From IMG/VR virus record IMGVR_UViG_3300035501_000484, positions 1-64,000 of that record: a DNA stretch of 64,000 nt; one strand, 5' to 3'. The notes under the pieces are model-generated. The model searched no databases, was not told where the DNA came from, and worked only from the letters and a program-made list of their open reading frames with translations. This DNA is from a virus. Of this stretch, positions 2,226-49,202 are shown piece by piece. The position numbers were made by a program, and so were the translations under genes. Positions within the stretch are counted from its first letter, which is position 1. Every line of letters starts with the position of its first letter.

Positions 2226-3179
2226 TTATTCATTTGCTGGATTTAAATTTTCTGTTAATTCTTTTAAATCCGTAATGATTAAATCAAGTGCTTCTACTTG
2301 GTCACGAGAACATTGATTTACTTTCTGACCTTTACCAAGATATTTGTCAGTAATCTGAACAATTCTTGGTTGCCAATAACTCTTAAAGTATTCTTCTGAA
2401 TTATTTACAATTAAATTATTAACAATAGAATTAAAACTATCAACTAATTCATCAAAATCTAATTCTTGTGTAACATTAGAATATAAGTTATTTCTTTCAT
2501 TGGTAAAGTATTCAGTACCATCTTCCGCAGCTTGTTTATCAATAGCATCACTAATAGCTTTTACTAATGCATTATAATTAAAATCTATATAATCTGGTGT
2601 ATACTTAAAACGGCTGCCTGCTATATAACGTGGTGTACCTCGCATAAATAGCTTTGTAGAAGTTGTTCCATCTTCATTTTGAATTGCTCTTGAATATGCT
2701 ATAATATCGCACATTCTTGAAACTATATTACGAGCTTTACTTCCTAATGTTGGAACAATCTGATTAAACTCGTTACCTTGTTCATCTTTAAAAGTTTTAT
2801 CAGCCGCATGACTAATTAAAACTAGACCATAGTCCATCTGAACAATACTTCTTAAACATTCATCAAATTCTTTAGCTACCATTGTATATCCCTTACCATA
2901 AGGAATATCTCCAACTGCGTCTACACCAAAACTGCCGTCTCCACGAGGAGCATTTGCACAAATATATTTCTCACAATCATCATATGCAATATCCGCAGTA
3001 TCAATAATTATAGTTTCGTACATCGCCTTAACATTTTCATCTTTAAGTTGTCTTAAAACCTTTTTAAATTCAGACCAAGAATTAATAGGTTGAGCCATCG
3101 CACCTGGAATTGCGTTATATCCTTTTTCAAAGGCTAATAACAAATGCCTAGGAAATTTAGTGGCTATTGTGGTTTTACC
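2226..3179 (-). CDS. AAA_24/Sak4-like RecA-type ATPase, exon 2 (GKTTIATKF... onwards)
   Basis: The ORF begins right after a stop with TTG-GGT-AAA-ACC, in the middle of a Walker A box. Joined to exon 1 the P-loop reads GEPKSGKTT, and LLLAFEKG/IIIDT match the AAA_24 fold. Confidence 0.7.
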   Translation of the reverse strand, partial: GKTTIATKFPRHLLLAFEKGYNAIPGAMAQPINSWSEFKKVLRQLKDENVKAMYETIIIDTADIAYDDCEKYICANAPRGDGSFGVDAVGDIPYGKGYTMVAKEFDECLRSIVQMDYGLVLISHAADKTFKDEQGNEFNQIVPTLGSKARNIVSRMCDIIAYSRAIQNEDGTTSTKLFMRGTPRYIAGSRFKYTPDYIDFNYNALVKAISDAIDKQAAEDGTEYFTNERNNLYSNVTQELDFDELVDSFNSIVNNLIVNNSEEYFKSYWQPRIVQITDKYLGKGQKVNQCSRDQVEALDLIITDLKELTENLNPANE

Positions 3180-4293
3180 CAATTAGTTATTAACTGTAAG
3201 TTTTTTATCTTACACTCTGGAGATTACTCTCATTTTCATCGACTGGTTATTTCCAATCCAGTTTAGCGTACCTTCTCTTCCTTATTTAAGGAAGTCGCAG
3301 ACTCTTGGCTTTACTATATTCTATTATTTTGTTTCTTCCATTCTATATATTTATTATATTTTCTTTGAAGATAAAAACTATTTGTTTTATTCATAATTTG
3401 ATACATAGAATCTAAAATTTGTATAACATCTTTAGTCGAATAAGTTAAAGTATAATAATTCTCTCTACTAGGGTCTTTATATACTTCCTTATGACTATTA
3501 ATTTTTTGATTAATTATTTTTGCAAAATCTTCTAAAATTGTTTTATCATATGAGCAAATTTCAAATCTACAAGTTGTTCCATCATTTTTAAAACAACCAT
3601 CGCCATCATAATATCCTAAAATATAAGCTAATTTAAAGTCATCATTTTCAAATTGAGGTAAGTGGATTCCTTTATAAGTTTTATTTGGAACAATATCATA
3701 TTTAACTAATTTATTTTTATGATTTTCACTACTCCAACTTAATTCTGAAATTTGAAATCCTTGATTAGTTTCATAATCTAAAATTTCTCTTTCAGAGTTT
3801 AATTCTTTCTGAATTTTTTCAAGAATTTCTCTATCTACTGAACTTAGTCCTATTTTTATTCTATTTCTATCTGATGCTACAGAACCATCTGCCGCAAGAA
3901 AACCAAGTAGCCATGCTTTTTGACAAGTATCTATATTATCAAAATAAGTATGATTAACTTTCTTTCCTCTCTCTTGATTAGTAATTTTATTTTGCTCAGC
4001 TCTAGTTCTTATTTTAATTCCATTATCAATAAGAATTTTTTTAATTTTTGCTCCATATGTATTATATTTATTTGCAATAAAACTTAAAGATTTTCCTTCA
4101 TTATATAATTGAATCATATCTTGGATGTCCATATGTGTAACATTCTCCTTTAAAATAATAGTTTCAAAAGCTACGCGTTGCGTGTGTTATAATTGTTATA
4201 TTATAACTTCCCTTCGGATTCATCTAAATAGAAGTTCCCGATTTTTCTGCGATGTGAACTTTATAGTTACCTATAAAGAGAGCAGTTTTATTT
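3180..4293 (-). mobile_element. group I-type intron (about 1114 nt) interrupting the AAA_24 ATPase gene, carrying a LAGLIDADG homing endonuclease ORF
   Basis: Exon 1 (4294..4380) ends ...CCAAAGAGU and is followed by an in-frame stop. The intron starts AAAUAAAACUGCUCU, where GCUCU can pair with exon AGAGU to give P1 with a U.G at the splice site. The intron's last nucleotide is G (plus-strand c at 3180) just before GGT AAA ACC. About 295 nt of non-ORF intron remain for the ribozyme core. Confidence 0.6.
3314..4132 (-). CDS. LAGLIDADG homing endonuclease (double-motif, intron-encoded)
   Basis: Two LAGLIDADG motifs, LLGFLAADGSV and ILGYYDGDGCF. Own RBS, AAAGGAGA 9 nt upstream of the ATG at 4132. 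Confidence 0.8.
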   Translation of the reverse strand: MDIQDMIQLYNEGKSLSFIANKYNTYGAKIKKILIDNGIKIRTRAEQNKITNQERGKKVNHTYFDNIDTCQKAWLLGFLAADGSVASDRNRIKIGLSSVDREILEKIQKELNSEREILDYETNQGFQISELSWSSENHKNKLVKYDIVPNKTYKGIHLPQFENDDFKLAYILGYYDGDGCFKNDGTTCRFEICSYDKTILEDFAKIINQKINSHKEVYKDPSRENYYTLTYSTKDVIQILDSMYQIMNKTNSFYLQRKYNKYIEWKKQNNRI

Positions 4294-4380
4294 ACTCTTT
4301 GGCTCTCCATAGAAGAAGACTGAATAACCCCTAAGGTCTCGACTAACTTGATGAGGCTGTATATTTAATAAATCTATCAT
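4294..4380 (-). CDS. AAA_24/Sak4-like ATPase, exon 1 (MIDLLNIQPHQVSRDLRGYSVFFYGEPKS)
   Basis: RBS GGAGAAAA and ATG at 4380. 29 codons ending in the first half of the Walker A box; an in-frame TAA follows unless spliced to 3179. Confidence 0.65.
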
Positions 4381-4449
4381 GCTATATATTTTCTCCTTAT
4401 TTATTATCAATTTAAACTAGAAATATAAGGGCTTCCGCCCTTATATTAT

Positions 4450-5406
4450 TTAGAAATTAAATCCGCCCTTCTTTGCAGGAGCTGTTTCAACTGGACCTCC
4501 AAAAGCATTTGGAGTAGTATTCTTAGATGCCTGAGAAGCTTGCCACTCTTCTCTTCTCTTCTTAACTTCTGCCAGCATAACTTCTCTATTTTGACAAGCT
4601 GTTCTTACCTCATCAGCAGTTAAAATCTTTTCATCTCCAAAATCATAAGGAACCTTTGCAGTGCCTGTAACAACCCACTCCTTAGTTTTCTTTTCATAAG
4701 TCTTAACTGAAGCTTCTCCAAATGCAGACTCTTCTGTTCTTTCAATAGTGGCTGTTGTACAATTAATCTTACCCCATACTTTAGTATAAACTGGCTCTGC
4801 ATTAGTTACATCTAAATTCATAAAATACTTCATACCCTGTTCATTACGAACAATAAATTCAACAGGTAACAAATCATTTCTAAAATTAAATACCGCTCCC
4901 TTAATGGTTACATATGGATTAGAGATATTCTTCTCTTCATCTGCCTCAACTGCTGTTACAGAAGTAATTAACATATCTACATTAAATGTATTTCTCTCAT
5001 TTTCTGGACATAACTCTGTTACTATAGTAACAAATCCGCCCTCATTCATCTTTACAGATACTAAATTATCATCTTGTGTATAAAAATCATTTAATGCAAG
5101 AGCTGTATCAATCTTTACTTTTGTTGCAGCATCTTTGCCATCTGTAATCCAAGCCTTGCCCTCTTCTATAATCTTCTTTAAAGCTGTAAATGTAGCGTTC
5201 TTTCCGCCATTCTTTGTAGTTTCAGTTACATATGTAAAATGTACTTGAATAACATTAAGTCCCTCTTCATCAACAGCAATATCTATATTACCATTAATAA
5301 ATTCTTTTCCAAAATTAGCAGACTGCTGATTTTGAACTGTCTTTATCGCTAATTCATGCTGATAAACTCTACCTTCAATATGTTCTTGATTTAATGCTTT
5401 CCTCAT
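4450..5406 (-). CDS. hypothetical protein, possibly a phage ssDNA-binding or annealing-associated protein
   Basis: 318 aa directly upstream of the Sak4-like ATPase gene. The C-terminal ...GGFNF tail is reminiscent of SSB tails. No catalytic motif found. Confidence 0.25.
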   Translation of the reverse strand: MRKALNQEHIEGRVYQHELAIKTVQNQQSANFGKEFINGNIDIAVDEEGLNVIQVHFTYVTETTKNGGKNATFTALKKIIEEGKAWITDGKDAATKVKIDTALALNDFYTQDDNLVSVKMNEGGFVTIVTELCPENERNTFNVDMLITSVTAVEADEEKNISNPYVTIKGAVFNFRNDLLPVEFIVRNEQGMKYFMNLDVTNAEPVYTKVWGKINCTTATIERTEESAFGEASVKTYEKKTKEWVVTGTAKVPYDFGDEKILTADEVRTACQNREVMLAEVKKRREEWQASQASKNTTPNAFGGPVETAPAKKGGFNF

Positions 5407-6815: not shown

Positions 6816-7526
6816 CTATTCTCCCCTTTCGTTTTTCTTATTCAATTCTTCTGCAAGATTGGAAACAAAATTTTCTAAATTAGTGTTTTTATTAACTCTA
6901 TATAATAAAATGTTATTATTTTTACAATACTCATTTTTTAAATTATCTATATATACTAATCTTTCATAGTCTTCTTTGGTCATTTTCCAGTTATTGTCAA
7001 ATTGAAAATGTTGACGACCATCATATTCAACTAAACAAAAAATATTATTTAGATTATCATAAATTACAAAATCAAAACGAACTTTGTAATTTTTATCAGT
7101 CTTTAAATCAGAAAAAGAAAATTGTGTACTATAAAAAATATCATATTTATTAAATAAATATTTTAATTGTGTTTCTCCCCATGAGTTCGTGCAACCACAC
7201 CCTAAAGATTTTCCAGAAGTTAAATTGCCTCTAAAAACGTCTTTCTCTTCTCCGCATTTGCACTTACAATGCCAATAATTTGATTTATTAGCTTTATATA
7301 AAACTGTCCAATTTCCAAACTGACGCCCAGTTAAATTATCTTTGATGCCAGTTTTTCTTTTATTAGAAGCAGCGCAACTTCTACATTTTTGATATAAATT
7401 ATCGCTTCGTACACTTCTTATACTTTTACATATTTGACATTCGCAGACCCAATATTCTCGTTTCTTAGAAAAATCTCTTTCTATAATTTTATTAGTCCCA
7501 AAAATGTCTCCATTCTTTAAATTCAT
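6816..7526 (-). CDS. zinc-ribbon plus DUF559/Vsr-like (PD-(D/E)XK) endonuclease-domain protein, putative homing-type endonuclease
   Basis: Several CxxC pairs in the N-terminal half. The C-terminus has FDFVIYD...LVEYDGRQHF, typical of DUF559 endonuclease domains. Start chosen at MNLKNG (ATG 7526) so it abuts the stop of the upstream gene; the track start at 7607 overlaps that gene by 80 nt. Confidence 0.4.
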   Translation of the reverse strand: MNLKNGDIFGTNKIIERDFSKKREYWVCECQICKSIRSVRSDNLYQKCRSCAASNKRKTGIKDNLTGRQFGNWTVLYKANKSNYWHCKCKCGEEKDVFRGNLTSGKSLGCGCTNSWGETQLKYLFNKYDIFYSTQFSFSDLKTDKNYKVRFDFVIYDNLNNIFCLVEYDGRQHFQFDNNWKMTKEDYERLVYIDNLKNEYCKNNNILLYRVNKNTNLENFVSNLAEELNKKNERGE

Positions 7527-7527
7527 T

Positions 7528-8499
7528 TTATTTTCCCACCCCATGGTTAGAATTATATCCAAAATTATAGGAATCATAAAGCTCAATATAATATTTTTCT
7601 TTTTCATTTAATAAATCTCGCGGGCATTCTTCCAAAAGCTCCCAAGAGAAAGACCATAAACCATATTCTTGCATAGCTTGATATAATTTATTATTTGCGG
7701 GAGTGTCGATTCCAAGTCCGCATTTCGCGTGTTCCGCCCATCTAGTTGCAATATCAGACGCTTGACCGATGTAACATTCTCCAGTTTCTATATTTGTAAT
7801 TTTATAAATACCAGTTATTGTTTTAGTTCCAAGTATATTTGCTGATAATGCTTTTAAAGGTTTTTGGAACCAAGTTTGCCATATTAACATACTAAGCACA
7901 CGAGGCTTGTTCAAAGTCTTTTTAACCTGCTCCAGCCGTGTTATATCAGTTTTATCTATATCAGAAATTTGTAGACAATAGAAAGCTAAATCATTTTGAA
8001 TTTCTTTTTCTCTTACTCTTGCTTGAATACTTGCGGCAAGTGTATCTTTAAGTTTTTGAAGTTCTTGATTAGTTTTATTAAATTCTATATTTAAAGTTTC
8101 TATTTTTTTCTTATATGCGGTTTCCGCATTTTGATATTGTAATTCTAGATTTTCAAAATATTTATTACTTGCATAATCAGTATTTTGTCTATAAATTTTT
8201 AATTGTTCAGAAATTTGATTTTTTTCATTTTCATATAATTCTTCAATTTTTTCTTTTTCTTTTGTAATATCTTCTAATAACTTTGTTTTCTCATAGGAAA
8301 GATTTAATATTTCTTGTTGTATTTTTTCTTTTTCTTTTATTTCATTATCTTTATTTACTTTAATATTATGAGCTTTATTCATAACATTATAGCTGATAAT
8401 AATAAAAATAATACCAATAATAAGAACTACTAAACTTAACATTTCTAAAAAGGTTATTTTAAGCACCTCCATATAAGAAAAATGGATTAAGTTTATCAC
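7528..8499 (-). CDS. membrane-anchored coiled-coil protein with C-terminal GIY-YIG nuclease domain
   Basis: N-terminal TM segment (LVVLIIGIIFIIISY), long coiled coil, then GIYKITNIETGECYIGQA...RWAEH, a GIY-YIG motif. Confidence 0.55.
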   Translation of the reverse strand: MINLIHFSYMEVLKITFLEMLSLVVLIIGIIFIIISYNVMNKAHNIKVNKDNEIKEKEKIQQEILNLSYEKTKLLEDITKEKEKIEELYENEKNQISEQLKIYRQNTDYASNKYFENLELQYQNAETAYKKKIETLNIEFNKTNQELQKLKDTLAASIQARVREKEIQNDLAFYCLQISDIDKTDITRLEQVKKTLNKPRVLSMLIWQTWFQKPLKALSANILGTKTITGIYKITNIETGECYIGQASDIATRWAEHAKCGLGIDTPANNKLYQAMQEYGLWSFSWELLEECPRDLLNEKEKYYIELYDSYNFGYNSNHGVGK

Positions 8500-16307: not shown

Positions 16308-16712
16308 TTATCCTACAATATTATCATTATTATTATTTATTTCAAATTGTTTCATTGCTATATCATATGTAATTCCATTTTTAGTATTTTCTTTAGTAGA
16401 TTTTAAAGCGTAGATAGCAAAAGAAAAAATTTCTCCTATTGTAACTCCTATTAATGTAGTTAATGGAGAAAAATCAGGAGCTAAATTGGTATATTTTGCT
16501 AATTGCAAACTTTGAACAACAGTCCAGCCAGTAAATAATTCAATAATAGTACAATTTATAAATAAAAATAAAATTAATAATTTTGTTGTAGTAATTTTTT
16601 TCTTTTTATGTAATTCTTTTTTTTCTTCATCTATTTTTTGTTGTCTTTTTATTAAATCCTTTTTAGCAGCCCACAGTTCCTCTTCTTTTTTTATTTTTTT
16701 CTCATTTAACAT
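16308..16712 (-). CDS. hypothetical membrane protein (coiled-coil N-terminus plus TM), possible second holin or lysis accessory
   Basis: 134 aa with central hydrophobic segments, in the lysis gene neighbourhood. Confidence 0.3.
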   Translation of the reverse strand: MLNEKKIKKEEELWAAKKDLIKRQQKIDEEKKELHKKKKITTTKLLILFLFINCTIIELFTGWTVVQSLQLAKYTNLAPDFSPLTTLIGVTIGEIFSFAIYALKSTKENTKNGITYDIAMKQFEINNNNDNIVG

Positions 16713-28195: not shown

Positions 28196-29401
28196 ATGCA
28201 CCATTCTTATTGTAAGAATGTAAACATTTTAGATAGGGAAGGTATTTATTTTTGTATTACTCAATGTTTATCTGATAAGTGGAATAGATATGATGTTATA
28301 AATTTCATTAATGAATATCTTCCTAGTTTTAGTAAAGATGAAGTTAGAAATATTATTAAATATAATAGAGATTTTTTAAAAGGAACCTTATATACAATCG
28401 CGGATGTCCTCGCTTATGAGATTAAGACGCGGACGGTACATTTTAAACCTATTAAATATAAAGAGAAATATGATAGCAATTCTAAGAAAACTAGAGAAAT
28501 AGGTGTCCAATCTATTAAACATCAATTATATGATTATATTGCAGTTTATTATGCAAGAGAAGTATGGGAGAAAAAGATTGGAGACTATCAATGTGCTTCA
28601 ATGCCTGGTCGAGGTCAGGTATTTGGTAAAAAATTAATAGAAAATTGTATTAGAACTTTTCCTAAAAAGACGAGATTTGCAGTTAAAGGAGATATTAGAA
28701 AATGTTATCCTTCAATTAATACTAGAAGATTGAAAAAGTTATTAAAGAAAGATATAGATAATGAAGATTTACTATATCTTATTTTTTATTTAATAGACTC
28801 TTTTAAACAAGGATTGTCGATAGGTTCTTTTCTTAGTCAATATTTATGCAATTATTACTTATCATTTGCTTATCATTATATAGAAACAAATTTAAGTCGT
28901 AATTATTATTTTATGTTATTTTATATGGATGACTTTATTCTTATAGCAGAAAATAAATCTGAATTAGCTACGGCGATGATTAAGATAGTTCAATATTTTA
29001 AAGAGTATTTAGACTTAGAAGTTAAAAATACTTGGCAAATATTTCCAATAGATTATTTTAGTAAAGATGGTAAAAGACGCGGTCGCGCAATAGATATGAT
29101 GGGATATGTAATTTATAAAACTCATACAGAAGTTAGACCATGTATCTTTTTAAAGGCTAGACGATTATATATTTATACTTATATACATTACGGGCAATTT
29201 AATAAGAGAATACCAGAGAAATTAGCACATCAATGCATTTCTTATTATGGTTGGTTTGTAAATTCTAATTCAGAATGGTTTATTAGAGAATATAATGTAA
29301 AGAAATTAGTTCATATGTCTGAAGTTGCGGTATCTTATTATTCAAAGCAAAAAAATAATAGAGAATCTTTAAAACGAGATTCTCTATTTTTTTTATTCTG
29401 A
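28196..29401 (+). CDS. DGR reverse transcriptase
   Basis: RT motifs VKGDIRKCYPSIN, YMDDFIL (YxDD) and the DGR-specific GLSIGSFLSQ (I/LGxxxSQ). Start placed at ATG 28196 with RBS aaagagga; the track ORF starts at TTG 28160. Confidence 0.8.
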   Translation: MHHSYCKNVNILDREGIYFCITQCLSDKWNRYDVINFINEYLPSFSKDEVRNIIKYNRDFLKGTLYTIADVLAYEIKTRTVHFKPIKYKEKYDSNSKKTREIGVQSIKHQLYDYIAVYYAREVWEKKIGDYQCASMPGRGQVFGKKLIENCIRTFPKKTRFAVKGDIRKCYPSINTRRLKKLLKKDIDNEDLLYLIFYLIDSFKQGLSIGSFLSQYLCNYYLSFAYHYIETNLSRNYYFMLFYMDDFILIAENKSELATAMIKIVQYFKEYLDLEVKNTWQIFPIDYFSKDGKRRGRAIDMMGYVIYKTHTEVRPCIFLKARRLYIYTYIHYGQFNKRIPEKLAHQCISYYGWFVNSNSEWFIREYNVKKLVHMSEVAVSYYSKQKNNRESLKRDSLFFLF

Positions 29402-46120: not shown

Positions 46121-46738
46121 TTAAACCAATTCCCATTGTTCATCAGTAAAATTATTTATATCTTTTTTTCTACTTGGTAAATTTTCAGTTTTACACCATT
46201 TAGTAATTGCTTTATCACTAACTCCATATTGTTCTCCTATCTTTGTAAAAGGAACTGTTCTAATAAGATGTTTTAAAGTATCTCTATCTGGTCTTTCAAC
46301 TATTCGAGATTGTTTTTTATAACAATCTTCACATAAACCACTTTTAGAATATCTTGTAATTTCCTTGCCGCAATTTGAACAAAAATACATTTTTTTATTT
46401 TGCAATTGTCCTTTATTTTCTCTTAATTGATTAGCAATATCTTCATTATAAACTTTATACTTATATAATTCTTCCTCAGAAAAAAGTTTATCGTGAATTT
46501 CTCTATGGCAATTTGCACAAACTAAAATACATTTTTTTATTTCTGCTAAATCTTTTTCTAAATCATGGCAAGTTCCATTAGAAGAAATACCATATAATTT
46601 TTCTTCAGCATTGATATGATGAAATTCTAAAGCTGAATTAGTTTTATGATAACCACATATATTACACTGATTACCACATACCTTAATTAAATTATCTTTT
46701 CTTCTTCTTCTATAATTACTTGTTTCTGTTGCACCCAT
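46121..46738 (-). CDS. HNH homing endonuclease, encoded inside the split tRNA gene
   Basis: HNH motifs CGNQCNICGYHK...EFHHI and CANCHREIH. Internal RBS AAAGGAGTG plus ATG at 46738; the track ORF extends to the ATG at 46834, overlapping the tRNA 5' half. Confidence 0.65.
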   Translation of the reverse strand: MGATETSNYRRRRKDNLIKVCGNQCNICGYHKTNSALEFHHINAEEKLYGISSNGTCHDLEKDLAEIKKCILVCANCHREIHDKLFSEEELYKYKVYNEDIANQLRENKGQLQNKKMYFCSNCGKEITRYSKSGLCEDCYKKQSRIVERPDRDTLKHLIRTVPFTKIGEQYGVSDKAITKWCKTENLPSRKKDINNFTDEQWELV

Positions 46739-46840
46739 ATTTTTCACTCCTTTATTTTTCATACTGTATATGAAAAATAAACCGATATGATTAATTACTG
46801 TTGTCCAATGTTCATTTATGCTACTTAACACCATTTTTGC

Positions 46841-46876
46841 ACAGTCGTGTGCTCATACCAACTGAGCTACATCCCA
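46841..46876 (-). tRNA. 5' half of a split tRNA gene (acceptor 5' strand, D-arm, 5' anticodon stem, start of anticodon loop CUGU)
   Basis: TGGGATG-TA-GCTCAGTTGGTATGAGC-A-CACGA-CTGT..., with a canonical D-arm. The anticodon would be GUU (Asn) or GUG (His) depending on the junction; G73 favours Asn. Confidence 0.5.
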
Positions 46877-47061
46877 AAATTTCAAACAAGACACTTTATT
46901 TTTAAATTAAATTAATAACTATTACTTTTAAATATAAATTTGATATTCTTTTTAAAAATTGCAGTATGTGTCTTTATTTTTTCTTTTGTTTTATTATATT
47001 AATATTATAATATAATTTTTTATTAAAATCAATTAAGCACTTTTGATAAATTATTTTTTTC

Positions 47062-47095
47062 TTTTTGTTTATATAAATATTATAACAAAAATTTT
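47062..47095 (-). promoter_or_regulatory. consensus promoter variant (TTGAAA, 17 nt spacer, TATAAT), one of two tandem promoters upstream of the split tRNA
   Basis: Minus strand reads TTGAAATTTAAAAAAATTTTTGTTATAAT. A second copy of the motif lies at about 47010-47040. Confidence 0.45.
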
Positions 47096-47096
47096 T

Positions 47097-47426
47097 TTAA
47101 ATTTCAAATATTTTATAATTATAATGAAGAAGCAATTCTTTAATATTTTTATATCCAACTAGATTAAAACTATGGCACTCAAAACCATCAATTTTAATAT
47201 TATTTGCAACAATATACTTTGCTAAATCATATCCAGTCTTTTTTCCGCCTAAATCATGGTCAAAAGCTACAAAAACAGTTCCATCTAGCTTATTATCTTT
47301 AACTTTATCTAACCAATCTTTGGCTTGATTATAAGTTTTACAAATTATTATTTCTTCAAAAACTGATTTCATCTTCTCTGGAACTGCTCTTTCATCATCA
47401 ATCCATAATAAATATTTCCATTTCAC
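47097..47426 (-). CDS. hypothetical protein, possibly receiver (REC)-like fold
   Basis: 109 aa, GTG start. LWIDDE...VAFDHDLGG...K spacing is reminiscent of CheY-like receiver domains; weak. Confidence 0.2.
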   Translation of the reverse strand: MKWKYLLWIDDERAVPEKMKSVFEEIIICKTYNQAKDWLDKVKDNKLDGTVFVAFDHDLGGKKTGYDLAKYIVANNIKIDGFECHSFNLVGYKNIKELLLHYNYKIFEI

Positions 47427-47509
47427 ATAATCACTTCTTTCTTTTCTTTATATAAATATTATATCAAAAATTTTATATAAAATCAAAAGAAAGAAAATAA
47501 CTAAATATT

Positions 47510-48094
47510 TTATTTAAATTGATGTTGCTCTATTTGAAGGCGACAACCTTTTACTCGTCTGCTAAAAAAATAATAATCATTCATTTCATAATAATTATTA
47601 TTATAATATATTAAAGTATTTCCTTCTAAAACATACATAGCTGCCTCTAAACATTCTTCTGGCAATTCCCCATTATCATATAGTTTTAATGCTTTATTTA
47701 AATTTCCGTCTGTTACAGGAGTAAATTGACCAGATTGATAAATTACATCATGGATTGAGTTTTCAAAAATCTCTGAATTAACTCTATTCATAACCACAAT
47801 ACCTACAGCTTGCTGTCCAGCTTCGCATTGATTGCCAGCTTCCGCATAAATAATTGATGCCATATATCTTAAATCTTCTGCATCAAAATCAACTTCCTCT
47901 TGTTCTGTATTTTCTTCTATTGTTTCTTCTTCATTAGTTTCTATTTCTATTATTTCTTCTTCTTCAAAAGCAGTATCTTGTATTAAAGATTGAAAATCTA
48001 CTACTTCTATTTGTAAATCTTGTGTTGGCAAGGGATTAAATAATGATAACACAAAACTCATTACATTAATTCCTAAAAAGTATTTAATTTTCAT
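47510..48094 (-). CDS. secreted cell-wall hydrolase, SleB/CwlJ-like (Hydrolase_2) domain
   Basis: Signal peptide and acidic linker. The C-terminal MASIIYAEAGNQCEAGQQAVGIVVMNRVNS...VIYQSGQFTPVTDG matches the SleB domain consensus. Confidence 0.6.
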   Translation of the reverse strand: MKIKYFLGINVMSFVLSLFNPLPTQDLQIEVVDFQSLIQDTAFEEEEIIEIETNEEETIEENTEQEEVDFDAEDLRYMASIIYAEAGNQCEAGQQAVGIVVMNRVNSEIFENSIHDVIYQSGQFTPVTDGNLNKALKLYDNGELPEECLEAAMYVLEGNTLIYYNNNYYEMNDYYFFSRRVKGCRLQIEQHQFK

Positions 48095-48221
48095 TAGTTT
48101 GTTTTCTTACCTTTCTTCTTAATGTTTTGCGAAATTTCTCAAAACCTATACAAGAACAAGTAGAAAATAATTAAAAGCCAAAAAATATTATTTTCTATAG
48201 TACAAGACTAAATATTTCTGT

Positions 48222-48491
48222 CTATTTCCTTTTAGTACATTTCTCCCAATAATTTAAAAAATTTTGTTTATCTGGATACATTTCTCTAATCCGAGATAAA
48301 TTCTCATAGTCTTGAATAGCTTGCTCTCTAGTCCAGACTTCTTTCCACGTACTACAATGCGGTTTGAGCCGCCTATACGCTCCTCCGTCTGGGATTTCCG
48401 CAAGTTTATCGTGTCTAAGTTTTCGATTAGATAGACGATAATCCTCTTTCTCTTGAATGACGATTGGAAATTTTTTATAAGACCTACTCAT
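48222..48491 (-). CDS. hypothetical protein
   Basis: 89 aa, basic. Confidence 0.2.
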   Translation of the reverse strand: MSRSYKKFPIVIQEKEDYRLSNRKLRHDKLAEIPDGGAYRRLKPHCSTWKEVWTREQAIQDYENLSRIREMYPDKQNFLNYWEKCTKRK

Positions 48492-48532
48492 ATATAATAC
48501 CTCCTTAAAAGTATTACATAATAATCACTCCT

Positions 48533-49084
48533 TTATTTCTCCCATTGGTGTCTTACTTTTCTTTGGGTTTTCCAATTTTTTTCAACAGTAGTATAGTTCC
48601 ACTCTTCAACTTCTTTGTGACTACCTCTATTGTATTTTTTATACTCTGGATTAGCATACATAGCTAATAAAGCTTTTTTATGATTATGCGGTGATTCATC
48701 TTTCCAACCCCTAGATTTATGAATCCCCTCAACAGGCTCTCGCCTAAACATGCCTTTATAAATACGTTTTTTAACCCAATAAGAACGTTTCTTATTAATA
48801 TAAGATGGTTTATTTTTTAAATATTTTATAAAATAATCCCAAGCCTCATTACGATATACCTGTGGAGTAATTCTTCTTCCATGTCCATCCCAATATTCAT
48901 AATTGAGTCTATTGTTAAAATACTTATCACAAAATAATATAGAATCATAAAATGAGCCTTTAAAGCCTTCTGCTAAAAAAGCAATTAGTTCTTTTTCATT
49001 ATTAAATTTTTGAATTTTATATTGATGCTTCCAACCTATTTCATAACCTACATAAATAGCATCGTCATTCATTATATTATACAT
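48533..49084 (-). CDS. hypothetical protein
   Basis: 183 aa, Trp/Tyr/Lys-rich. Confidence 0.2.
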   Translation of the reverse strand: MYNIMNDDAIYVGYEIGWKHQYKIQKFNNEKELIAFLAEGFKGSFYDSILFCDKYFNNRLNYEYWDGHGRRITPQVYRNEAWDYFIKYLKNKPSYINKKRSYWVKKRIYKGMFRREPVEGIHKSRGWKDESPHNHKKALLAMYANPEYKKYNRGSHKEVEEWNYTTVEKNWKTQRKVRHQWEK

Positions 49085-49128
49085 AGTAATTCTCCTTTAT
49101 TTTATTTTACTTACTTACTACATATAAA

Positions 49129-49202
49129 TAGAAAGTCTGAGATTTGAACTCAGCATCTCTGGCGTATCAGACCAGTGTACTAACCAACTATACTAACTTT
49201 CT
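49129..49202 (-). tRNA. tRNA-Ile (anticodon GAU)
   Basis: Acceptor AGAAAGT/ACTTTCT, D-arm TA-GTAT-AGTTGGTTA-GTAC, anticodon arm CTGGT-CTGATAC-GCCAG, T-arm CTGAG-TTCAAAT-CTCAG, A73. Confidence 0.7.

What the first reader, a model, noticed from the sequence alone, without database searches (positions are those of the whole stretch)
3180..4380. Sak4-like AAA_24 ATPase gene split by a group I-type intron carrying a LAGLIDADG homing endonuclease
Exon 1 (4294..4380, MIDLLNIQPHQVSRDLRGYSVFFYGEPKS) stops in the middle of the Walker A box. Exon 2 (2226..3179) starts GKTTIATKF, so the joined P-loop reads GEPKSGKTT. The intervening 1114 nt start just after an exonic U, end in G, contain a candidate IGS (GCUCU pairing exon AGAGU), and carry an ORF with two LAGLIDADG motifs and its own RBS. 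The in-frame stop after exon 1 makes this an RNA-spliced intron, not an intein.
Basis: partly seen in the sequence, partly recalled or inferred. Interest (0 to 1): 0.65.

Follow-up and report, generated by a model that had tools for sequence, protein, structure and literature searches.

The report
Self-splicing intron inside phage recombinase gene
A phage recombination gene (Sak4) is interrupted in its ATP-binding motif by a mobile group I intron that carries its own homing endonuclease gene, and near-identical intron-free phages show that it arrived recently; the kind is well known, but this example is unusually well documented.

Summary
On the minus strand, exon 1 (4380..4294) and exon 2 (3179..2226) join into a 346-aa Sak4/AAA_24 ATPase. 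It aligns without a gap across the junction (FYGEPKS|GKTT) with uninterrupted homologues.

The 1114-nt insert (4293..3180) folds as a group I intron. It has the U·G 5' splice site paired to the guide sequence GCUCU, helices P2-P9.2, the P3/P7 pseudoknot and a terminal G. Relatives occur in at least 118 viral contigs and support the fold by covariation: 95.6% of cells paired against 31-42% in slid controls, with 36 of 51 pairs compensatory.

The 272-aa LAGLIDADG ORF sits in the loop of a helix between P7 and P3'.

It also fails on ORF-less relatives, yet it detects the T4 td and nrdB introns, so the model is blind to this family.

An intron-less contig differs from the spliced window at 18 positions in 3232 nt. 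All are synonymous and lie between -13 and +42 of the insertion site, which is a co-conversion tract from recent homing.

Splicing and endonuclease activity are inferred, not shown. This is a new member of a known kind.

The parts
4294..4380 (-). Exon 1 of the Sak4/AAA_24 gene (29 codons, ends ...GEPKS inside Walker A). The last 5 nt, AGAGU (4298..4294), form the exon strand of P1.
4288..4290 (-). In-frame UAA stop, two codons into the intron. It rules out an intein and stops ribosomes before the ribozyme core.
3180..4293 (-). Group I intron, 1114 nt, inserted in phase 0 between Ser29 and Gly30.
4279..4283 (-). Internal guide sequence GCUCU. It pairs with exon AGAGU, with U·G at the splice site, and lies directly 5' of P2 as in family members.
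4259..4278 (-). P2 hairpin CUUUAUAG-GUAA-CUAUAAAG (GNRA loop). Two compensatory changes against the L146 orthologue.
4247..4252 (-). P3 5' strand UCGCAG. It pairs with 3300..3295.
   Evidence: (6/6 pairs compensatory, 100% paired)
4215..4240 (-). P4 (CGGG/UCCG), J4/5 AA, P5 (CUUCU/AGAUG with one U·U), J5/4 AA. The layout is very close to T4 td (CGGGGAACCUCUCUAGUAGACAAUCCCG).
4186..4207 (-). P6 hairpin GUUAUAAU/AUUAUAAC.
4172..4178 (-). P7 5' strand A[C]GCGUA with bulged C. The G-C pair next to the bulge is the presumed guanosine-binding site.
   Evidence: (100% paired in 40 sequences; the pair across the bulge is AU:30 GC:10; the G-C is invariant)
4152..4170 (-). 5' strands of P7.1 (CUUU, 4170..4167) and P7.2/P7.1a (CUAUUAUUUU, 4161..4152), separated by the conserved UGAAA.
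4145..4151 (-). AAAGGAG, candidate ribosome-binding site of the endonuclease ORF, 12 nt before the AUG.
3314..4132 (-). 272-aa LAGLIDADG homing endonuclease ORF in the loop of P7.2. Motif 1 is at 3910..3878 (D82) and motif 2 at 3622..3590 (D178). About 65 N-terminal residues are weakly HTH-like.
3309..3330 (-). 3' strands of P7.2 (AAAAUAAUAG, the last ORF codons, 3330..3321) and P7.1 (AAAG, 3312..3309). The ORF stop UAG (3316..3314) lies inside the conserved GAAUAUA(A/G)U element.
3295..3300 (-). P3 3' strand CUGCGA, which forms a pseudoknot with P7.
3277..3294 (-). P8 hairpin CUUCCUU-AAAU-AAGGAAG.
   Evidence: (70/75 paired against 23-34/75 when shifted)
3265..3276 (-). J8/7 (AGAAGG) and P7 3' strand UACGCU, resembling the classical 'S' element.
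3195..3258 (-). 3' domain: P9 (3258..3241), the conserved GAUGAAAAUGA...CCAGAG motif (3240..3215) containing P9.1 (3231..3220, GNRA loop), and P9.2 (3214..3195). It is 75-83% identical to introns in the AR9/PBS1 and phiR1-37 gyrA genes and the Clostridium phage terL gene.
3180..3180 (-). Terminal G (omega-G) at the 3' splice site.
2226..3179 (-). Exon 2 of Sak4 (317 codons plus the stop, starts GKTTIATKF). Gene callers report it as a 318-aa TTG-start ORF.
3138..3179 (-). Downstream part of the co-conversion tract (+1..+42). It holds 13 synonymous differences from the intron-less allele L129.
4294..4306 (-). Upstream part of the co-conversion tract (-13..-1). It includes the Ser codon switch TCG to AGU, which creates the U·G splice site and the P1 pairing.

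Best explanation
A mobile group I intron of subgroup IA type, carrying a LAGLIDADG homing endonuclease gene, interrupts the Walker A (P-loop) coding sequence of the phage Sak4-like recombinase gene.

Inferred splicing mechanism:
- The pre-mRNA folds into the P1-P9.2 ribozyme.
- Exogenous guanosine bound in P7 attacks after the exonic U (4294), which is wobble-paired to the G of the guide sequence GCUCU.
- The freed exon 1 then attacks after the terminal G (3180).
- This gives an mRNA for an intact 346-aa ATPase with the P-loop GEPKSGKT.
- The UAA two codons into the intron keeps ribosomes out of the core.

Inferred homing mechanism:
- The endonuclease is translated from the loop of P7.2.
- It cuts intron-less Sak4 alleles of co-infecting relatives near the insertion site.
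- Double-strand-break repair from the intron-plus allele copies the intron together with about 55 nt of flanking exon.

Shown computationally: the exact junction, the covariation-supported fold, the intact endonuclease motifs, and natural intron-plus and intron-minus alleles with a sharply bounded co-conversion tract.

Inferred only: catalysis, endonuclease activity and the cleavage site.
For: 1. Junction. The spliced protein aligns in one piece with uninterrupted Sak4 genes. BLASTP against VRE9_4 gives 4e-129 with FYGEPKSGKTT identical and no gap. Most of the 80 listed viral-contig relatives are uninterrupted. Among the 120 best database proteins listed, the only truncated one is the 318-aa exon-2 call of this phage.

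2. Fold.
- The minimum-energy structure of the ORF-deleted precursor recovers P1, P2, P3, P4, P5, P6, P7.1, P7.2, P8, P9, P9.1 and P9.2 (z = -5.14).
- In a 15-sequence alignment, 95.6% of cells pair against 31-42% in slid controls, and 36 of 51 pairs show compensatory change.
- In 40 diverse relatives, P7, P7.1 and P8 are 97.1% paired. P7 is 100% paired, including A-U to G-C covariation across the bulge and an invariant G-C.
- P8 pairs at 70 of 75 positions, against 23-34 of 75 when shifted.

3. Orthologue. The intron at the same site in L146 is 74% identical and shows compensatory changes in P2, P3, P6, P7, P7.1 and P7.2.

4. Family. The 3' domain is 75-83% identical to sequences that split gyrA in AR9, PBS1 and phiR1-37, terL in a Clostridium phage, and a Staphylococcus phage tail gene. 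AR9 gyrA is annotated as a three-piece join. The family model R1 scores the AR9 introns at 62-64 bits and the window's 3' half at 28.1 bits (E 9e-4).

5. Guide sequence tracks the exon. It is GCUCU with AGAGU here, GCCGU with (A/C)(U/C)GGU in the gyrA introns, and GCCAC with GUGGU in the L147 intron (sequences).

6. Endonuclease. Pfam LAGLIDADG_3 2e-16 and PHROG 4645 3e-44. It is 28-32% identical over its full length to intron-encoded endonucleases of Staphylococcus phages such as I-MsaII. Both motif aspartates are present.

7. Mobility. The intron-less contig L129 differs from the spliced window at 18 positions in 3232 nt, all synonymous and all between -13 and +42. Three further intron-less contigs from other samples carry the same cluster.
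Against: - There is no transcript or biochemical evidence of splicing.
- No contig with the window-type spliced junction was found in metagenome contigs.
- Rfam RF00028 gives no hit at E <= 10.
- The family model R1 does not hit the proven self-splicing T4 td or nrdB introns. The link to experimentally verified group I introns therefore rests on architecture and shared core motifs, not on a significant model score.
- P5 in this copy has a U·U mismatch.
- The spacing between the candidate ribosome-binding site and the endonuclease AUG is long (12 nt).
- The donor of the co-converted tract was not found. The intron-plus relatives L146, L214 and L256 differ from the window within the tract.
Confidence: 0.9

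Rival explanations
1. A free-standing homing endonuclease gene has split Sak4 into two separately translated pieces that work together, or do not work at all, and no RNA splicing occurs.
For: Gene callers annotate exon 2 as an independent 318-aa TTG-start gene. Other homing-endonuclease-like ORFs lie nearby at 6816..8499.
Against: - Exon 1 encodes only 29 residues and ends in the middle of Walker A.
- The TTG 'start' overlaps the 3' splice site and has no Shine-Dalgarno sequence.
- The 295 nt flanking the ORF form a conserved structure supported by covariation and shared with ORF-less relatives.
- Both exons stay 100% identical in protein to the intron-less allele, and under purifying selection in L146.
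Confidence: 0.04
2. The structure is a degenerate group I intron that can no longer splice, so Sak4 is a pseudogene in this phage.
For: Splicing is untested. P5 has a mismatch. RF00028 does not recognise the sequence.
Against: - All core helices are intact, and the invariant positions of the family are kept.
- The Ser codon at -3..-1 was co-converted to AGU, exactly what P1 and the U·G pair need.
- The intron-plus allele occurs on five contigs, one of them 139,648 nt long.
- Orthologous intron-plus alleles persist at 74-76% nucleotide identity with compensatory changes.
Confidence: 0.05
3. The insert is an intein, a group II intron or a translational bypass element.
For: LAGLIDADG domains also occur in inteins, and P-loops are common intein sites.
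Against: - There is an in-frame stop two codons into the insert, and the ORF has its own start.
- The insert encodes no reverse transcriptase, and no Rfam group II family is hit.
- 1114 nt is far too long for ribosomal bypassing.
Confidence: 0.01

Closest known systems
Group I introns in gyrA of Bacillus jumbo phages AR9/PBS1 and Yersinia phage phiR1-37 (same RNA family)
   Same: - The RNA is homologous. The 3' domain is 75-83% identical, and family model R1 scores the AR9 introns at 62-64 bits.
- The helices are the same and covary.
- The guide sequence lies directly 5' of a P2 hairpin with a GNRA loop.
   Different: - The host gene and insertion site differ.
- The AR9 introns have no ORF and carry a roughly 60-nt extension in P1.
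- In phiR1-37 the ORF lies between the 5' splice site and the guide sequence.
- Here the ORF is in the P7.2 loop.
T4 td intron (subgroup IA2) with I-TevI
   Same: - Both are phage group I introns in a DNA-metabolism gene with an early in-frame stop.
- The P2-P5 layout is nearly superimposable: CGGG-AA-P5-AA-UCCG here and CGGGG-AA-P5-AA-UCCCG in td.
- Both have extra helices between P7 and P3'.
- In both, the endonuclease ORF sits in a peripheral loop.
   Different: - I-TevI is a GIY-YIG enzyme located in P6a.
- td has two side-by-side hairpins (P7.1 and P7.2), whereas here there is one nested arm.
- The P9 domains are unrelated.
- RF00028 detects td at 40.3 bits but not this intron.
- R1 does not detect td.
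Intron with I-MsaII in the rec (RecA-like) gene of Staphylococcus Kayvirus phages (MSA6 and relatives)
   Same: - The endonuclease is the closest named homologue found (28% identity over 94% of its length).
- That intron also interrupts the Walker A motif of a RecA-superfamily recombinase (YGLTGSG|KSTF).
   Different: - The host protein family differs: a RecA-like 'rec' gene as annotated in that record, not Sak4/AAA_24.
- The junction is one codon later (G|K).
- The intron RNA belongs to another family: its P7 3' strand is AUAGUCU, the 3' domain differs, and R1 gives no significant hit.
HNH (I-HmuI-like) group I intron in the Sak4 gene of a related phage (L147)
   Same: Same gene and same P-loop. 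Exon 2 is 79% identical in protein. It is a group I intron (RF00028 27.8 bits, E 8e-5).
   Different: It is inserted 3 nt downstream (G30|K31). The RNA is unrelated, and the endonuclease is an HNH_3/NUMOD type.

Membership tests
Group I intron | P1 formed by the 5' exon end and an internal guide sequence, with a U·G wobble at the cleavage site | tested here: met
   AGAGU (4298..4294) pairs with GCUCU (4283..4279), with U·G at the junction. All five additional intron-plus loci checked (six loci, L146 plus the five recovered) end exon 1 in AAGAGU, while intron-less alleles have AAAUCG. The guide sequence differs with the exon sequence in relatives at other sites.
Group I intron | Terminal guanosine (omega-G) at the 3' splice site | tested here: met
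   The intron ends in G at 3180. The AR9 I1 and I2, BpSp and phiR1-37 relatives also end in G.
Group I intron | Conserved core P3-P4-P5-P6-P7-P8 with the P3/P7 pseudoknot, supported by covariation | tested here: met
   95.6% of cells paired against 31-42% in slid controls; P3 has 6 of 6 pairs compensatory. P7 is 100% paired in 40 sequences. P8 pairs at 70 of 75 positions. P3 (4252..4247 with 3300..3295) crosses P7 (4178..4172 with 3270..3265).
Group I intron | Guanosine-binding site: a G-C pair in P7 next to a bulged nucleotide | tested here: met
   The 5' strand is A[C]GCGUA and the 3' strand UACGCU. The G-C pair is invariant in 40 of 40 sequences, and the pair beyond the bulge covaries (A-U 30, G-C 10). 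That this pair binds guanosine is inferred.
Group I intron | Match to the curated covariance model RF00028 (a diagnostic, not a defining feature) | tested here: not met
   No hit at E <= 10. There is also none for the ORF-less AR9 relatives or for 16 of 16 family loci. T4 td and nrdB are hit at 40.3 and 35.7 bits. The model does not cover this family.
Group I intron | GTP-dependent self-splicing | not testable with these tools
   This needs in-vitro transcription and splicing, or RNA-seq.
Subgroup IA | Extra helices (P7.1 with P7.2 or P7.1a) between P7 and P3' | tested here: met
   P7.1 is CUUU/AAAG and encloses CUAUUAUUUU/AAAAUAAUAG; both are 100% paired with compensatory changes. The nested arrangement is closer to P7.1/P7.1a than to the two hairpins of T4 td. 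The sub-subgroup (IA1 or IA2) was not resolved.
LAGLIDADG homing endonuclease | Two LAGLIDADG motifs, each with the metal-binding acidic residue; profile match | tested here: met
   LLGFLAADG (D82) and ILGYYDGDG (D178). Pfam LAGLIDADG_3 2.1e-16 with two stretches. PHROG 4645 2.7e-44. PDB 2dch gives a marginal match at 0.0099.
LAGLIDADG homing endonuclease | Site-specific cleavage of the intron-less allele | not testable with these tools
   Indirect only: the co-conversion tract from -13 to +42.
Sak4 / AAA_24 (RecA-like core ATPase) | Full-length profile match with intact Walker A and Walker B | tested here: met
   After splicing: AAA_24 1.3e-40 over profile positions 2-195 of 195; PHROG 124 6.2e-55; Walker A GEPKSGKT and hydrophobic-D IIIDTAD. 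It is 53% identical to the annotated Sak4 of phage VRE9_4. Gene order matches the SPbeta yorF-yorG-yorH-dnaB module.

The most novel reading that the evidence does not exclude
The P-loop codons of Sak4 in this clade of roughly 140-kb phages may be a contested homing site. Two unrelated group I introns insert 3 nt apart: a LAGLIDADG-bearing one here and an I-HmuI-like HNH-bearing one in L147. Each would destroy the other's target, so they would act as competition or exclusion markers between co-infecting phages.

In addition, the intron RNA belongs to a large phage-specific structural family, found in at least 118 viral contigs. It has a nested P7.1 arm and a conserved P9-P9.2 domain. The curated Rfam model misses it entirely, which leaves many split phage genes (gyrA, terL, tail genes) annotated as separate fragments.
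Probability: 0.35. Interest if true: 0.55.

Novelty: new member of a known kind. Interest (0 to 1): 0.45.

Why it matters
- **Annotation.** Sak4 in this phage is intact only after splicing. Automatic annotation reports a truncated 318-aa protein without half of its P-loop, and the same error affects relatives in GenBank.
- **Detection.** A widespread phage group I intron family escapes RF00028, so intron surveys that rely on that model undercount phage introns.
- **Biology.** The intron-plus and intron-minus pair gives a natural, base-resolution record of a homing event. It includes the forced Ser-codon switch (TCG to AGU) that the ribozyme needs for P1. It also gives a ready-made target sequence for testing a new LAGLIDADG enzyme.
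- **Limits.** The class itself, a phage group I intron with a homing endonuclease in a DNA-metabolism gene, has been known for decades.

Tried and rejected
- **Rfam on the region.** Scan of 2800..4700 at E <= 10: no group I hit.
- **Rfam on relatives.** No hit on the AR9 introns or on 16 family loci. The failure was calibrated with T4 td and nrdB as positive controls.
- **Pattern error.** A first family pattern had a spacing error and found nothing, not even in the window. It was corrected.
- **Source phage.** Megablast of 20 kb against GenBank phages found no close relative.
- **Link to T4.** Family covariance model R1 did not reach T4 td or nrdB, nor the Staphylococcus rec intron, so no statistical link to experimentally proven introns was obtained. 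R1 found no second copy in the window; the 17.3-bit hit at 16398..16489 on the plus strand (E 0.22) is taken as chance.
- **Spliced transcripts.** An exact search for the window-type spliced junction in metagenome contigs, as a proxy for spliced transcripts or precise intron loss, found nothing.
- **5' junction pattern.** This search returned mostly chance hits. Five of about 120 loci were true homologues, and none is the donor of the co-converted tract.
- The intron-less allele was reached instead through cluster members.
- **Literature.** Searches for introns in Sak4 genes found nothing relevant.
- **Rejected readings.** Intein, group II intron and bypass readings were rejected from the sequence itself.
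Full report
**1. Observation**

All genes in this part of the window are on the minus strand. Reading it gives:
- a 29-codon ORF start (4380..4294, MIDLL...FFYGEPKS), followed by AAA UAA;
- 161 nt of non-coding sequence;
- a 272-aa ORF (4132..3314);
- 134 nt of non-coding sequence ending in G (3180);
- an open frame starting GKTTIATKF (3179..2226).

The joined 346-aa product matches Pfam AAA_24 end to end (1.3e-40) and PHROG 124 'Sak4-like ssDNA annealing protein' (6e-55). The internal ORF matches LAGLIDADG_3 (2e-16) and PHROG 4645 (3e-44).

**2. The junction is exact**

tblastn of the joined protein against GenBank phages gives single-piece alignments over residues 2-337 to uninterrupted genes. 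The best are Enterococcus phages at 52.5% identity. BLASTP against the annotated Sak4 of phage VRE9_4 gives 4e-129 with FYGEPKSGKTT identical and no gap at the joint.

Gene order is conserved: PHROG 2367/YorF, then Sak4/YorG, then YorH, then DnaB. Most of the 80 listed relatives in viral contigs are uninterrupted. Among the 120 best database proteins listed, all others are 341-347 aa; the only truncated one is the 318-aa exon-2 call of this phage itself.

**3. The insert is a structured RNA of a large phage intron family**

BLASTN showed that the 3' non-coding 139 nt (window 3184..3322) are 75-83% identical to sequences inside split genes of unrelated phages:
- gyrA of Bacillus phages AR9 and PBS1, annotated in AR9 as a three-piece join;
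- gyrA of Bacillus phage BpSp and of Yersinia phage phiR1-37;
- terL of a Clostridium perfringens phage;
- a tail gene of a Staphylococcus phage.

A 26-nt motif from this domain occurs exactly in at least 118 IMG/VR contigs.

I aligned the ORF-deleted window intron with 14 relatives (A1) and wrote out the helices. The results were:
- 95.6% of 758 cells form standard pairs, against 31-42% when the 3' partners are slid by 1-3 columns.
- 36 of 51 pairs show changes on both sides.
- P3, P6, P7, P7.1, P7.2, P9, P9.1 and P9.2 are 100% paired.
- P4 and P5 looked weaker only because the window copy is shifted by one column. In the window they read CGGG/UCCG, J4/5 AA, CUUCU/AGAUG and J5/4 AA.

In 40 more diverse relatives (A2), P7, P7.1 and P8 are 97.1% paired. 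P7 is 100% paired, one G-C pair is invariant, and an A-U to G-C covariation occurs across a bulged nucleotide. This is the geometry expected for a group I guanosine-binding site.

P8 pairs at 70 of 75 outer positions, against 23-34 of 75 when shifted. P3 and P7 cross, giving the group I pseudoknot.

ViennaRNA on the ORF-deleted precursor recovers P1, P2, P3, P4, P5, P6, P7.1, P7.2, P8, P9, P9.1 and P9.2 without any input from the alignment (z = -5.14, 0 of 100 shuffles as good).

An orthologous intron at the same site in a related phage (L146, 74% nucleotide identity) shows compensatory changes in P2 (two), P3, P6 (two), P7, P7.1 and P7.2.

**4. Anatomy of the window copy** (coordinates verified)

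- P1 is AGAGU (exon) paired with GCUCU (4283..4279), with U·G at the cleavage site.
- P2 follows directly and has a GUAA loop.
- The order is then P3, P4-P5, P6 and the P7 5' strand A[C]GCGUA.
- Next comes a nested arm: P7.1 (CUUU/AAAG) encloses P7.2 (CUAUUAUUUU/AAAAUAAUAG).
- The loop of P7.2 holds the ribosome-binding site and the whole endonuclease ORF. The last ORF codons form the 3' strand of P7.2, and the stop codon lies inside the conserved GAAUAUA(A/G)U element.
- After the arm come P3', P8, J8/7, P7', P9, P9.1 (GNRA loop), P9.2 and the terminal G.

The P2-P5 layout closely resembles T4 td. Extra helices between P7 and P3' place the intron in subgroup IA.

In relatives the ORF, when present, sits elsewhere. 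In phiR1-37 it lies between the 5' splice site and the guide sequence. In the Staphylococcus phage it lies in P8. AR9 has none. This fits independent invasion of introns by endonuclease genes.

**5. The Rfam test fails, and why that is not decisive**

- RF00028 gives no hit at E <= 10 on 2800..4700.
- It gives none on the ORF-less AR9 introns, even when only 861 nt are searched.
- It gives none on 16 other family loci.
- The same procedure finds T4 td (40.3 bits, E 9e-8) and nrdB (35.7 bits), both carrying ORFs.
- It also finds the unrelated L147 intron (27.8 bits).

The model is therefore insensitive to this family. My own model R1 finds the AR9 introns at 62-64 bits, L146 at 41 bits and the window's 3' half at 28.1 bits (E 9e-4). 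It does not find the T4 introns. Membership therefore rests on the defining structural features, not on a score link to an experimentally proven intron.

**6. The endonuclease**

Both LAGLIDADG motifs keep their acidic residue (D82, D178). The protein is 28-32% identical over nearly its full length to intron-encoded endonucleases of Staphylococcus Kayvirus phages, for example I-MsaII. The I-MsaII intron also interrupts a Walker A motif, in a RecA-like recombinase (YGLTGSG|KSTF).

The N-terminal 65 or so residues give only sub-threshold helix-turn-helix hits. A maturase role cannot be excluded.

**7. Evidence of recent mobility**

Contig L129, from another sample, lacks the intron. Over 3232 aligned nucleotides it differs from the spliced window at 18 positions. 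All are synonymous and all lie between -13 and +42 of the insertion site. The remaining 3137 nt downstream are identical. By my own estimate, the chance that 18 uniformly placed differences all fall in one 56-nt span is about 1e-32.

Three further intron-less contigs from other samples (L209-L211, about 98% identical overall) carry the same cluster.

The intron-less alleles read ...CCAAAATCG|GG(G/A)AAAACTACGATT. All intron-plus alleles read ...CC(A/T)AAGAGT|GGTAAAAC(C/G)ACAAT. The Ser codon switch TCG to AGU cannot arise by a single substitution, and it is exactly what P1 and the U·G pair require. This is the signature of endonuclease-initiated double-strand-break repair with co-conversion of flanking exon. 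The actual donor was not found.

**8. Comparison with what is known, and verdict**

Group I introns with homing endonucleases in phage DNA-metabolism genes have long been known (PMC12350094 and references therein).

What is new here:
- the host gene and site, since I found no report of an intron in a Sak4 gene;
- membership in a large family that Rfam does not detect;
- an unusually clean natural intron-plus and intron-minus pair.

A related phage carries an unrelated HNH-bearing group I intron 3 nt downstream, so the P-loop codons are a hot spot.

This is a new member of a known kind. Splicing and cleavage remain to be shown experimentally.

Noticed in passing
window 25651-29401 (+ strand): Probable diversity-generating retroelement. 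A 97-nt repeat at the 3' end of a tail-like ORF (27180-27276) is 85% identical to a copy at 27836-27932. By eye, every mismatch is an A in the second copy, as expected for a template repeat. A reverse-transcriptase ORF follows at 28160-29401 (PHROG 1423, 5e-66)..
   Followed up: partly
L147 1505-2497 (IMGVR_UViG_3300045988_151959): A relative whose Sak4 exon 2 is 79% identical in protein carries a different group I intron in Sak4 (RF00028 27.8 bits, E 8e-5). Its ORF is I-HmuI-like (HNH_3, NUMOD1, NUMOD4). It is inserted 3 nt downstream (G30|K31) of the site used here. Its guide sequence GCCAC pairs with exon GUGGU..
   Followed up: partly
L007-L124 (IMG/VR); L001, L002, L003, L005, L006: The intron RNA family is found in at least 118 viral contigs. 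Rfam RF00028 detected none of the members tested: 16 loci plus the AR9 introns. In GenBank, phiR1-37 gyrA (g327/g329), Clostridium phage CpeS-1181 terL (00002/00004) and Staphylococcus phage SscS-F1 major tail protein (9/7) are annotated as separate CDS fragments rather than as spliced genes..
   Followed up: partly
window 6816-8499 (- strand): ORF 6816-7607 matches HNH and 'intron encoded nuclease' PHROGs. The C-terminal residues 230-320 of the overlapping ORF 7528-8499 match GIY-YIG homing endonucleases. This may be a frameshifted or free-standing homing endonuclease about 2.5 kb upstream of the Sak4 gene..
   Followed up: no
window 39660-49202 (- strand): An array of 16 tRNA genes at or above the Rfam gathering score..
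   Followed up: no
L146 (IMGVR_UViG_3300045988_178161), endonuclease ORF: The orthologous intron endonuclease has DGNG instead of DGDG in the second LAGLIDADG motif. The loss of the acidic residue suggests a nickase or a decaying enzyme..
   Followed up: no
L126 (Staphylococcus phage MSA6) 1752-4384: The annotated rec intron carrying I-MsaII also splits the Walker A motif (YGLTGSG|KSTF). Related LAGLIDADG enzymes therefore sit in P-loop codons of two different recombinase families..
   Followed up: partly
window 4347-4442 (- strand): Weak RAGATH-17 match (26.3 bits against a gathering score of 102.3, E 1.3). It covers the terminator-like hairpin AAGGGCGGAAGCCCUU and the Sak4 ribosome-binding site. 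Probably chance..
   Followed up: no
L041 1784-1902 (- strand): Strong Fusobacteriales-1 RNA match (RF02920, 82.4 bits) in a viral contig that also carries a member of the intron family..
   Followed up: no
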